Shown: positions 1 through 3,429 of the stretch, one piece after another
How positions within the stretch are numbered: position 1 is the first letter of the stretch
Layout of the letters: each line of letters starts with the position of its first letter
Assembly: GCF_022846255.1 (NCBI RefSeq)
Contig: NZ_AP025682.1
Source of the DNA: Escherichia coli
GTDB lineage: Bacteria > Pseudomonadota > Gammaproteobacteria > Enterobacterales > Enterobacteriaceae
Direction: 5' to 3' (one strand)
DNA: 64,000 nt
Translations under genes and position numbers: made by a program
The notes under the pieces: generated by a model
Told to the model about the DNA's origin: nothing
Database searches by the model: none
Seen by the model: only the letters and a program-made list of their open reading frames with translations

Positions 1-2101
1 CCAGTTTCTGTACCGAGACATTCAGCCGTTCGAAGAACAAGCCCCAGGTTTGACCGGAGACGCGCAGCGCCTTGAAGCGCCCGGTTTCCTGGCGGGTGCT
101 GGAAAGACGCAGTTCAATACACTCAGAAACCAGTTGCTGCACGCGAGTACGGATTAACCCGCGCAGATGCTGGCTATAACAGAAGACTTCCACACTATCT
201 GGCGGTGCGGCGTCCTGATGCATTTTGCCGAGAATGGTTTTCAGGGCTTCAATCATCGACTGCTCACCGTTGAAGTGCAGCGTACGCACTTCGTTCCACG
301 AGTTGCGATACAGCAGGTCAACGCTACCCACCAGGCAATTTTGATTCTCGCCAAAGCTGAAGACATCCAGCTTACGGAAATCAAAATGCACCACCTGATT
401 GCGGAAGGCTGCCGTCGGGTCATATTCCAGGTTAACGATAATCGCCAGATGGCGGATCTCACACGGGCTGTAGAGCGCCTTCGGTGTCGGTGCAGGTAAG
501 CGCAGCGGGAAATGGTGCGACACGTCGGCGACCATCTCCTGCAACTTAGGCAAATCGACAATGCCGTTACCTTTAATATACAAGCGGGTGCGCGAGGTCA
601 GCAGGCCGTTAAACCATGCCCACGCCACCAGTTTATTCAGGTAACGGTTATATTCCAGCGGCTGATGGCTGATGATCGACTCAATATTTGGCGCGCGGTT
701 ATACAGATACCAACCTGAACGGTTAGCCCGGCCCGGCGGCACATAAATAAAGGTCAGATTCGGTTCCGAGAGATCGGGTGAAATCTGCGGGTTTACCAGC
801 GTCACTTTACCCGGTAACGCTTCAAACGCGGCGTACAGTTTACGTGTCAGAACACCGATATCCTGCGGGCTGGCGGAAACGCTAAGGTTATTGCGACGCG
901 CAAAGCGGATCAGATTGCGGTAGCTCTGCATCATCGCGTCGAGCAACTCGTTGTGCGCCTCACGCACCTGATCAATCTTCCAGTTAGCGCGATTATCAAG
1001 CATTGCCAGACGAGAATCGTCCCATTCCCACTCTTTCACCAACTGGCTTAACACTTCACGACGCCAGCCTACGCAGGCGCGTTCACGGCTGAGTTTTTCG
1101 CAAACTTTTAAATAGAAGCATCGGCGAACTAAATCCAGACGAGTAAAATCTTCGATCGCCGTCAGATATTCAGTGACGCGCTCCAGCATCATGCAATACG
1201 GGTCGAGACCAAACGACACTATTTCGCCGTCGTGCAAACGCTGTTTGATATCTTTCGCCAGCAGACGTGGGTTCGGGTATTCCCAGGAATAGGCTTCCAG
1301 CAGCAGTGTTTTCAGCACCGCTTTGTATGGGGAATCGATACTCTTGTAGAGCTGCCAAAGGCTGGCACCAAAGTACTCTTCAGCAGAAAGCGAGCTTAAG
1401 CCACCAAGATCCAGCCATTCATTTGGCGTCAACACGCCCTGCGCGTAAAGCGTCATCACATAGTCGTCGTAATGCTCTTCTTCGTCGCACGGCACCATAT
1501 TCCACAGAATACGCTTACCGGCGAGACGCACGGCGGTACGATAAAATTCGTCAAGCAGCAGTATATGCTGGGTGGAGCCACAATCTTCGCCCCCCAGGCT
1601 GCCGCTTTCATTATGACGGAAGCGGTTTTCATCAATCAGGAAGAAGCTGACTTCCACACCCAGCGAGGCGGCCCAGCTTTCCAGCAGACTACATTTACGT
1701 TGTAGCAACTGGCGCTCTTCGCTATCGAGCCAGGATTGATGACAGACCCAGATATCCAGGTCAGAGGAACAACTTTGCCCTACGGACGAGGTGCTGCCCA
1801 TGGTGTATACACCAGTAATTGGAAGCTCACCTTTCGGTGGGTCCTGTACTGACATTCCACGATACAGTTCAAGCTCGTTCAGGTAGTGGCGTTGAGTTTC
1901 ATCAGGCGTGTAAAGGCAAATGCCTTTGGGAACGTTACCATCAAGGTAACCCGGCATTAGCGGATGGTGATAGTGCAACAATGTCGGCAGTAGACTGTAG
2001 ACCTGTTGGAATGCAGGCCCCATAGCAGCAAGCGCGCGATCCACACGCAATTGATTTATGGCATCCAGTCTCTGTTTCAGAGTCTCAATATAGAGGTACA
2101 A
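1..2101 (-). CDS. cyaA: Adenylate cyclase CyaA, 5' portion (N-terminal ~700 codons; 3' end lies beyond window start); TTG start codon
   Basis: Minus-strand translation from TTG at 2101 reads [13 protein letters not shown]...; no in-frame stop to position 1 (no closed ORF in this frame in the track); divergent from hemC as in E. coli. Confidence 0.88.
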
Positions 2102-2487
2102 GACGTATCGCCTGATTTGCTACCCGTCATGACTGTGATTCCGCCAACATCAACGGTAACACGCGGCATTCGGGATATTTCGTATGTCAAAGGTAACCGT
2201 TACCACTTTTCGCGCCTGGTTTTTTTAGTTTCACGACGAAAAAATGGTCTAAAACGTGATCAATTTAACACCTTGCTGATTGACCGTAAAGAAAGATGCG
2301 CTACATACAAGTGTAGCACCGTTTATTCTCTGTAAATTCCTTATTACGAAGGCTCAAAGCGCCTGTCAGGATCCACTGCCAGACCTCATTTTACGGTTTG
2401 CGCAGGCGTCTACGTTTCACCACAACACTGACATCGCTCTGGCAAGGATGTTAGGATGGACCACGGATGATAATGACGGTAACAAGC
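2102..2487. promoter_or_regulatory. cyaA-hemC divergent intergenic region (cyaA and hemC promoters expected here)
   Basis: 386-bp noncoding gap between divergent cyaA and hemC starts; individual promoter elements not resolved by eye. Confidence 0.4.
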
Positions 2488-3429
2488 ATGTTAGACAATG
2501 TTTTAAGAATTGCCACACGCCAAAGCCCACTTGCACTCTGGCAGGCACACTATGTCAAAGACAAGTTGATGGCGAGCCATCCGGGCCTGGTCGTTGAACT
2601 GGTACCGATGGTGACGCGCGGCGATGTGATTCTTGATACGCCGCTGGCGAAAGTAGGCGGAAAAGGCTTATTTGTGAAAGAGCTGGAAGTCGCGCTCCTC
2701 GAAAATCGCGCCGATATCGCCGTACATTCAATGAAAGATGTGCCGGTTGAATTCCCGCAAGGTCTGGGGCTGGTCACCATTTGCAAGCGCGAAGATCCCC
2801 GCGATGCCTTTGTATCCAACACCTATGACAGTCTGGATGCGTTACCGGCAGGCAGTATCGTCGGGACGTCCAGTTTACGTCGCCAGTGCCAACTGGCTGA
2901 ACGCCGCCCGGATCTGATTATCCGCTCCCTGCGCGGCAACGTCGGCACTCGTCTGAGCAAACTGGATAACGGCGAATATGATGCCATCATTCTTGCCGTA
3001 GCCGGACTAAAACGTTTAGGTCTGGAGTCCCGCATTCGCGCCGCGTTGCCACCCGAGATTTCTCTTCCGGCGGTAGGGCAAGGTGCGGTGGGCATTGAAT
3101 GCCGCCTTGATGATGCACGCACTCGCGAGCTGCTCGCCGCGCTGAATCACCACGAAACTGCACTGCGCGTTACCGCCGAACGCGCCATGAATACCCGTCT
3201 CGAAGGCGGATGTCAGGTGCCAATTGGTAGCTACGCCGAGCTTATTGATGGCGAAATCTGGCTGCGTGCGTTGGTTGGCGCGCCGGACGGTTCGCAGATT
3301 ATTCGCGGTGAACGCCGCGGTGCGCCGCAAGATGCCGAACAAATGGGGATTTCGCTGGCAGAAGAGCTACTGAATAACGGCGCGCGCGAGATCCTCGCTG
3401 AAGTCTATAACGGAGACGCCCCGGCATGA
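2488..3429 (+). CDS. hemC: Porphobilinogen deaminase (hydroxymethylbilane synthase)
   Basis: ORF 2467..3429; product matches HemC from [19 protein letters not shown] (third in-frame ATG at 2488), 313 aa. Confidence 0.95.

What the first reader, a model, noticed from the sequence alone, without database searches (positions are those of the whole stretch)
2099..2101. cyaA uses a UUG initiation codon
The N-terminus [10 protein letters not shown] is encoded starting from TTG with no in-frame ATG nearby. A weak start codon on adenylate cyclase is a known way of keeping its expression low. It is noted here because ORF callers that require ATG will mis-start this gene.
Basis: partly seen in the sequence, partly recalled or inferred. 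Interest (0 to 1): 0.1.

Follow-up and report, generated by a model that had tools for sequence, protein, structure and literature searches.

The report
cyaA starts at a TTG codon

Summary
Confirmed and already known. The window is E. coli DNA, and cyaA lies on the minus strand, so the plus strand reads CAA at 2099-2101. The minus strand reads TTG TAC CTC TAT ATT GAG..., which encodes (f)[10 protein letters not shown]. An in-frame TAG at 2122-2120 leaves six upstream codons, none of them a start. The first in-frame ATG is codon 27 (2023-2021). The only nearby upstream ATG (2130-2128) is out of frame.

RefSeq starts cyaA at exactly this TTG in strain ATCC 11775 and in K-12 (b3806). NCBIfam's class I adenylate cyclase profile aligns its position 1 to this codon. 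The TTG is present in 81 of 81 Enterobacteriaceae loci and is the called start in 7 of 12 homologs at 45-65% identity. In 5418 of 5425 complete E. coli genomes the stretch from -30 to +33 matches at 99% identity or better.

Papers held here cite Reddy et al. 1985 for relative expression UUG:GUG:AUG = 1:2:6, and list cya in the polyamine modulon.

One modest extra: the block from -16 to +42 is almost invariant, synonymous sites included, so the whole initiation region looks constrained. The cause is unexplained. Interest is low.

The parts
2099..2101 (-). TTG (UUG) initiation codon of cyaA
   Evidence: Minus strand reads TTG TAC CTC TAT ATT GAG = (M)YLYIE. It coincides with the RefSeq cyaA start in ATCC 11775 (L001:3100) and K-12 b3806 (NC_000913.3:3991153). 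TTG in 81/81 loci. NCBIfam profile position 1 aligns here.
1..2101 (-). cyaA coding sequence, codons 1-700 of 848, cut off by the left end of the window
   Evidence: Open frame from 2101 down to base 1. Pfam PF12633 at residues 5-200 and PF01295 at residues 228-700, E = 1e-210. NCBIfam class I adenylate cyclase equivalogs align 1-700 of 848-850. RefSeq gene length is 2547 nt.
2109..2114 (-). Weak Shine-Dalgarno-like element CAGGCG; its AGG lies at -12..-10, 9 nt before the TTG
   Evidence: Read directly from the sequence. CAGGCG occupies -13..-8 in 78/79 Enterobacteriaceae species. ATCAGG-like sequence 9-10 nt before the TTG recurs in homologs at 48-65% identity. PMC7177335 classes cya among genes with a normally positioned SD.
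2120..2122 (-). In-frame TAG stop, 7 codons upstream of the TTG, which rules out any upstream in-frame start
   Evidence: E. coli loci: stop 7 codons upstream, no alternative starts.
2021..2023 (-). First in-frame ATG (codon 27), where an ATG-only ORF caller would wrongly start
   Evidence: Residues 1-26 are conserved, and codons 7, 8, 15, 16, 19 and 20 vary only synonymously across 78 species, so they are translated.
2060..2117 (-). Near-invariant translation-initiation block, -16 to +42
   Evidence: Upstream conservation jumps from about 0.4 to 0.9 or more at -16. Codons 2-6 and 9-14 have major-codon frequency 0.95-1.0, against a background mean of 0.72, where only 9.7% of comparable codons reach 0.97. 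The -30..+33 stretch matches at >=99% in 5418/5425 E. coli genomes.
2077..2130 (-). Out-of-frame upstream ATG (2130..2128) opening a 17-codon ORF ([17 protein letters not shown]) that overlaps the SD and the TTG. Probably incidental.
   Evidence: Read from the sequence. Its frame is not conserved: -29 in E. coli, -30 (in frame) in E. albertii, Salmonella and most Citrobacter, and absent in most other genera.
2255..2270 (-). CRP-like site TGTTAAATTGATCACG in the cyaA promoter region (context only)
   Evidence: Matches TGTGAN6TCACA with 2 mismatches, which is no better than chance as a pattern (20 found, 25.9 expected). It is consistent with my recollection that cAMP-CRP represses cyaA P2 (Aiba 1985). 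Not tested here.

Best explanation
Window 2101..2099 (minus strand) is the genuine translation start of E. coli cyaA, the class I adenylate cyclase. Initiator fMet-tRNA decodes the near-cognate UUG, helped by a weak SD-like AGG 9 nt upstream. UUG pairs imperfectly with the CAU anticodon, so initiation is several-fold less efficient than at AUG. That holds adenylate cyclase synthesis low, on top of transcriptional repression by cAMP-CRP and post-translational control by the PTS.

Shown here: the position of the start, the absence of any alternative start, and its deep conservation. Shown in the literature and read second-hand: the 2- to 6-fold throttling effect and polyamine stimulation of UUG-dependent initiation. 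Inferred: that low expression is the selected benefit.
For: The sequence reads [12 protein letters not shown], with an in-frame TAG 7 codons upstream and no start codon between them. RefSeq starts cyaA on this base in ATCC 11775 and K-12. NCBIfam equivalog profile position 1 aligns with residue 1, and the Pfam N-terminal domain starts at residue 5. TTG is present in 81/81 Enterobacteriaceae loci. The surrounding 63 nt match at >=99% in 5418/5425 E. coli genomes. Synonymous-only variation from codon 7 onward proves that the region upstream of M27 is coding. Sequence upstream of -16 is unconserved and carries non-triplet indels. TTG is the called start in 7 of 12 homologs at 45-65% identity, and probably in an eighth. 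By my own binomial arithmetic, not a tool result, the probability of at least 7 of 12 is about 5e-5 even at a generous 10% background. Literature: UUG:GUG:AUG = 1:2:6 and conservation across gammaproteobacteria (PMC5499595); polyamines enhance UUG-dependent initiation of cya (PMC7177335); genes with UUG starts are on average the least expressed (PMC5622118).
Against: Codons 1-6 are invariant at the nucleotide level. The comparative data therefore cannot prove that these six codons are translated; that rests on the stop codon, the SD spacing and the published experiments. I could not read the primary experimental papers, so the 1:2:6 figure is second-hand. That 'weak start' is the adaptive reason, rather than regulated initiation, is not settled. 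Invariance of UUG specifically, never GUG within the family, and of the whole -16..+42 block suggests more than a simple throttle.
Confidence: 0.96

Rival explanations
1. UUG is kept as a regulatory sensor, not only as a throttle. Initiation at UUG responds differently from AUG to polyamines, IF3/IF2, ppGpp and nutritional state, so CyaA synthesis tracks physiology. This does not exclude the main explanation.
For: [quoted passage not shown] UUG mRNA competitiveness was the least affected in minimal-medium extracts and by ppGpp, and those authors link this to cyaA and spoT (PMC5499595). UUG is invariant within Enterobacteriaceae, never GUG, and the whole -16..+42 block is constrained. Pseudomonas-type genes achieve low CyaA with ATG plus a poor SD instead (L092; PMC11139211).
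Against: Nothing here measures regulation. Some homologs use GUG or ATG at the same position, so UUG itself is not indispensable to the family.
Confidence: 0.3
2. The real start is the first in-frame ATG (codon 27, window 2023..2021), and the TTG lies in the 5' UTR.
For: ATG is the commonest start codon. M27 is invariant in 78 species.
Against: Residues 1-26 are 97-100% conserved as amino acids, while codons 7, 8, 15, 16, 19 and 20 vary only synonymously. Family profiles extend to residue 1. RefSeq annotates the TTG. Published mutagenesis of the UUG changes expression.
Confidence: 0.01
3. Translation starts at the upstream ATG (2130..2128), giving an N-terminally extended CyaA, or that ATG opens a regulatory upstream ORF that controls access to the UUG.
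For: The ATG has a GGA 9 nt upstream, about as good as the SD of the TTG. In E. albertii, Salmonella arizonae and most Citrobacter the same ATG is in frame with cyaA, with no stop between.
Against: In this window it is 29 nt upstream and so out of frame, and an in-frame TAG precedes the TTG, so an extension is impossible without frameshifting. Its frame differs between sister species through a 1-nt indel, and it is absent from most genera. A library search for initiation-site profiling evidence (terms cyaA + retapamulin) turned up no paper that addresses cyaA initiation sites, judged from titles and abstracts only.
Confidence: 0.05
4. The TTG is retained by phylogenetic inertia, with no selection on the codon identity.
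For: Close relatives share much sequence by descent.
Against: Across the same 78 species, ordinary synonymous sites have a mean major-codon frequency of 0.72, yet the TTG is 100% conserved. It persists in homologs at 45-65% identity where the rest of the leader is unrecognisable. A single T-to-A or T-to-G change would give ATG or GTG.
Confidence: 0.03

Closest known systems
E. coli K-12 cyaA (b3806, NP_418250.1) and its UUG start (Roy et al. 1983; Aiba et al. 1984; Reddy et al. 1985)
   Same: The start codon, SD, leader (the last 340 or so nt are identical) and N-terminus are the same. It is the same gene in another E. coli lineage.
   Different: There are only a few substitutions further upstream in the hemC-cyaA intergenic region and a few amino-acid differences inside the protein. 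Nothing differs at the start.
Other E. coli genes with inefficient starts in the polyamine modulon (cra, spoT, frr, gshA, uvrY)
   Same: They have a UUG or GUG start with a normally positioned SD, and translation is stimulated by polyamines (PMC7177335).
   Different: They are unrelated proteins. Membership for cya is a literature claim that was not tested here.
infC (IF3), with an AUU start used for autoregulation
   Same: It also has a conserved non-AUG start codon that sets or regulates expression at initiation (PMC5499595).
   Different: For infC the mechanism is a defined IF3 feedback loop. No such dedicated feedback is known for cyaA.
Pseudomonas putida cyaA
   Same: It belongs to the same enzyme class and also has low translation of the cyclase.
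   Different: Low expression there is attributed to a poor SD, not a UUG (PMC11139211, citing Arce-Rodriguez 2021). The Pseudomonas-length homolog sampled here starts with ATG (L092).

Membership tests
Class I adenylate cyclase (CyaA) | N-terminal domain PF12633 followed by the class I catalytic domain PF01295 | tested here: met
   PF12633 at residues 5-200 (E = 4.6e-79). PF01295 at residues 228-700 (E = 1.1e-210), cut short by the window end.
Class I adenylate cyclase (CyaA) | Match to the NCBIfam equivalog above its curated cut-off | tested here: met
   NF006979 scores 1518 bits against a cut-off of 1316, even with only 700 of 848 residues. NF006977 scores 1700 against 1761, falling short only because of the truncation.
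Class I adenylate cyclase (CyaA) | Orthologous position: divergent from hemC, next to cyaY | tested here: met
   hemC is divergent in the window. cyaY lies beyond the window end in the 100%-identical ATCC 11775 genome.
Bacterial genes initiated at UUG | TTG at the codon aligned with residue 1 of the family, with no possible upstream in-frame start | tested here: met
   In-frame TAG 7 codons upstream with no ATG, GTG or TTG between. Profile position 1 aligns at the TTG.
Bacterial genes initiated at UUG | Shine-Dalgarno element at functional spacing | tested here: met
   AGG at -12..-10, with 9 nt between it and the TTG. CAGGCG is conserved in 78/79 species. It is a weak three-base match.
Bacterial genes initiated at UUG | Start codon conserved in orthologs | tested here: met
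   81/81 Enterobacteriaceae loci. 7-8 of 12 homologs at 45-65% identity.
Bacterial genes initiated at UUG | Direct experimental proof of initiation (N-terminal sequence, or mutagenesis of the codon) | not testable with these tools
   Known only second-hand: Reddy 1985 mutagenesis as quoted in PMC5499595. The primary papers are not held. I recall that Aiba 1984 sequenced the N-terminus of a cya-lacZ fusion; that is unverified.
Polyamine modulon | Translation stimulated by polyamines through the inefficient start codon | not testable with these tools
   Literature statement only (PMC7177335, citing Yoshida et al. 2001).

The most novel reading that the evidence does not exclude
The UUG may be one part of a larger conserved regulatory unit rather than a lone weak codon. 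The whole block from -16 to +42 is nearly invariant across about 78 enterobacterial species, synonymous sites included. It could be a structured or trans-bound RNA element. One candidate is the predicted pairing of the SD region and the -3..+2 bases with codons 10-14. Another is an sRNA or protein site. Overlapping out-of-frame AUGs could also act as decoy starts that tune access to the UUG: one at -29 in E. coli, and one at -5 in 47 of 79 other species.
Probability: 0.12. Interest if true: 0.35.

Novelty: already known. Interest (0 to 1): 0.06.

Why it matters
It matters mostly for annotation hygiene. An ATG-only ORF caller would remove 26 conserved residues from CyaA. One metagenomic homolog sampled here (L089) does appear to be mis-started by a gene caller, 17 codons too far downstream. 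Biologically, cyaA is the classic example showing that a start codon can set the expression level of a dose-sensitive signalling enzyme. This window adds no new biology. The only mildly useful addition is a measure of how deep and how wide the constraint is: TTG in 81/81 Enterobacteriaceae loci, a near-invariant block from -16 to +42, and persistence down to about 45% protein identity.

Tried and rejected
1. I tried to read the primary papers: Reddy 1985 (PMC390610), Roy 1983 (PMC555187), Thorner 1990 (PMC1204097) and Hecht 2017 (PMC5397182). None is held, so the experimental claims are cited second-hand.

2. I looked for RNA structure in the initiation region. The single-sequence fold of -59..+60 has z = -0.5, which is not significant. 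RNAalifold on 18 genera predicts pairing of the SD and start with codons 10-14 at -9.97 kcal/mol, but with zero covarying pairs, and two species break a pair. I rejected this as evidence and kept it only as speculation.

3. An Rfam scan of 1900-2600 on both strands at E <= 1 found nothing.

4. The CRP consensus scan gives a site at 2255-2270 with 2 mismatches, but such matches are no more frequent in the window than in shuffles. Sequence alone therefore says nothing.

5. The simple sigma-70 scan did not pick out a cyaA promoter in the region proximal to the start; its one minus-strand hit (2494..2467) lies at the hemC end of the intergenic region, about 370 nt upstream of the TTG. I did not pursue this.

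6. The upstream ATG as the true start is rejected. It is out of frame, a stop intervenes, and its frame is not conserved.

7. A literature search for initiation-site profiling evidence at cyaA (terms cyaA + retapamulin) returned no paper that, by title and abstract, addresses cyaA initiation sites.

Full report
**Observation**

The plus strand reads CAA at 2099-2101. The feature is on the minus strand, which the finding does not state. Read on the minus strand, 2101..2099 is TTG, followed by TAC CTC TAT ATT GAG ACT CTG AAA CAG.

Translating upstream in the same frame reaches a TAG at 2122..2120, seven codons before the TTG. The six codons between are CAA ATC AGG CGA TAC GTC, and none is ATG, GTG or TTG. 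The TTG is therefore the first possible canonical start in the frame.

Downstream, the next in-frame candidates are TTG at codon 18, GTG at codon 20 and the first ATG at codon 27 (2023..2021). The only ATG close upstream (2130..2128) is 29 nt away and so out of frame. The reading frame stays open down to base 1, so the window holds codons 1-700 of the gene.

**What it is**

A 1.2-kb stretch across the start is 100% identical to E. coli ATCC 11775, NU14 and other strains. It matches 5425 of 5426 complete E. coli genomes, and the features under the match are annotated cyaA and hemC.

RefSeq places the cyaA start of ATCC 11775 at locus position 3100 of L001. By the coordinate map window = 5201 - locus, that is window 2101. 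K-12 MG1655 b3806 starts at NC_000913.3:3991153. The sequence there is the same TTG in an identical leader.

The protein matches Pfam Adenyl_cycl_N at residues 5-200 and Adenylate_cycl at residues 228-700. It aligns residue 1 to profile position 1 of the NCBIfam class I adenylate cyclase equivalogs.

**Comparative test**

A scan of one genome per species returned 80 Enterobacteriaceae loci with 92-100% identity over the first 300 residues. With the two reference loci added and one truncated locus dropped, the codon aligned to residue 1 is TTG in 81 of 81.

Within E. coli, the 63 nt from -30 to +33 match at 99% identity or better in 5418 of 5425 complete genomes. For a 63-base query that means identical over the aligned stretch. 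The one variant I inspected differs only at -25.

Conservation upstream of the TTG is about 0.4 per position until -16, then jumps to 0.9 or more. Farther upstream the sequences carry indels that are not multiples of three. That is how non-coding DNA behaves.

Downstream, codons 7, 8, 15, 16, 19 and 20 vary freely but only synonymously. This proves translation well upstream of Met27 and rules out the ATG at codon 27 as the start. Codons 1-6 are invariant at the nucleotide level, so comparison alone cannot show that they are translated. For those six codons the case rests on the in-frame stop, the SD spacing, the family profiles and the published experiments.

**Beyond the family**

I took 50%-identity cluster representatives and fetched DNA for twelve homologs at 45-65% identity. 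The called start codons are as follows:

| Called start | Loci |
|---|---|
| TTG | 7 (L084, L086, L087, L088, L090, L093, L095) |
| GTG | 3 (L085, L094, L089) |
| ATG | 2 (L091 and L092, the GC-rich locus of Pseudomonas-like length) |

In L089 an in-frame TTG 17 codons upstream opens a peptide, LLAHISRIKRRVIRLNE, that resembles E. coli residues 1-17. The GTG call there is probably a gene-caller mis-start.

Several of the TTG loci keep an ATCAGG-like motif 9-10 nt before the start. UUG starts are about 3% of E. coli genes, which I take from established knowledge (Blattner 1997). Even at a 10% background, seven or more of twelve has a binomial probability of about 5e-5. That figure is my own hand arithmetic, not a tool result.

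This independently agrees with the statement in PMC5499595 that cyaA begins with UUG in many Enterobacterales and other gammaproteobacteria.

**Mechanism**

The leader has a weak SD-like AGG at -12..-10 within CAGGCG, which is conserved in 78 of 79 species. Papers held in the library report three relevant points:

- Mutating the cyaA UUG gave relative adenylate cyclase synthesis of 1:2:6 for UUG:GUG:AUG, or 1:2:3 in a lacZ fusion (PMC5499595, citing Reddy et al. 1985).
- Polyamines enhance UUG-dependent fMet-tRNA binding for cya, which is why cya is placed in the polyamine modulon (PMC7177335, citing Yoshida et al. 2001).
- Genes with UUG starts are on average the least expressed (PMC5622118).

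A non-exclusive refinement is that UUG makes initiation condition-dependent (polyamines, ppGpp, nutritional state), as PMC5499595 argues.

P. putida is reported to reach low CyaA through a poor SD instead (PMC11139211). That fits the ATG start in the Pseudomonas-like locus sampled here.

**Extras, not part of the claim**

- *The initiation region is unusually constrained.* Codons 2-6 and 9-14 have major-codon frequencies of 0.95-1.0. Among invariant-residue codons in the first 300, the mean is 0.72 and only 9.7% reach 0.97.
- *A predicted stem has no support.* RNAalifold predicts that GGCG in the SD region and GUCUU at -3..+2 pair with codons 10-14. All pairs are invariant, so there is no covariation. 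Two species break a pair, and the E. coli fold is no better than shuffles. Rfam has nothing here. The cause of the constraint remains unexplained.
- *The upstream ATG changes frame between species.* The ATG at -29 opens a 17-codon out-of-frame ORF across the SD and the TTG. A 1-nt indel puts the same ATG in frame in E. albertii, Salmonella arizonae and most Citrobacter, and most other genera lack it. A conserved N-terminal extension or leader peptide is therefore unlikely.
- *The one variable base in the block creates an ATG elsewhere.* Position -4 is C in this window. It is T in 47 of 79 species, where it creates an out-of-frame ATG 5 nt before the TTG.

**Verdict**

The phenomenon has been known since 1983-85 and is correctly annotated in reference genomes. 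Novelty: already known. Interest: low.

Noticed in passing
window 2060-2117 (minus strand): The cyaA initiation region from -16 to +42 is nearly invariant across 78 Enterobacteriaceae species, synonymous sites of codons 2-6 and 9-14 included. This is far above the background for the same gene. A predicted stem pairing the SD and start with codons 10-14 has no covariation support. The cause is unexplained.
   Followed up: partly
window 2077-2130 (minus strand): An ATG 29 nt upstream of the TTG opens a 17-codon out-of-frame ORF ([17 protein letters not shown]) that overlaps the cyaA SD and start. In E. albertii (L004), Salmonella arizonae (L014) and most Citrobacter loci a 1-nt insertion puts this ATG in frame with cyaA, 10 codons upstream with no stop. 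Longest-ORF callers could over-extend the gene in those species.
   Followed up: partly
window 2105 (minus strand, position -4); loci L015-L082: The only variable base in the conserved -16..-1 block is C in E. coli. It is T in 47 of 79 species, where it creates an out-of-frame ATG 5 nt before the TTG (GATATGTCTTG). Whether that ATG competes with the UUG is unknown.
   Followed up: no
L089:350-403: In a metagenomic class I cyclase at 50% identity, the gene caller chose a GTG 17 codons downstream of an in-frame TTG. The peptide from that TTG aligns with E. coli residues 1-17. This is a likely real-world mis-start of a cyaA homolog.
   Followed up: partly
window 2467-2490 (plus strand): The divergent hemC ORF has its first ATG at 2467 (320 aa). 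RefSeq starts hemC at the ATG at 2488 (313 aa, [11 protein letters not shown]...). This is a second start-site ambiguity in the same intergenic neighbourhood.
   Followed up: partly
window 2298-2319: An 8-bp inverted repeat (GTGCTACA CTTGTA TGTAGCGC) followed by a T-rich run lies in the hemC-cyaA intergenic region and scores as terminator-like on both strands. It sits upstream of the cyaA leader. Its function was not examined.
   Followed up: no
L093:361-400 and L095:361-400: Distant cyaA homologs carry CRP-like half or full sites (attgatcacg; gtgatcgttatcaca) within 40 nt upstream of their TTG starts. This hints that CRP feedback on cyaA is also widely conserved.
   Followed up: no
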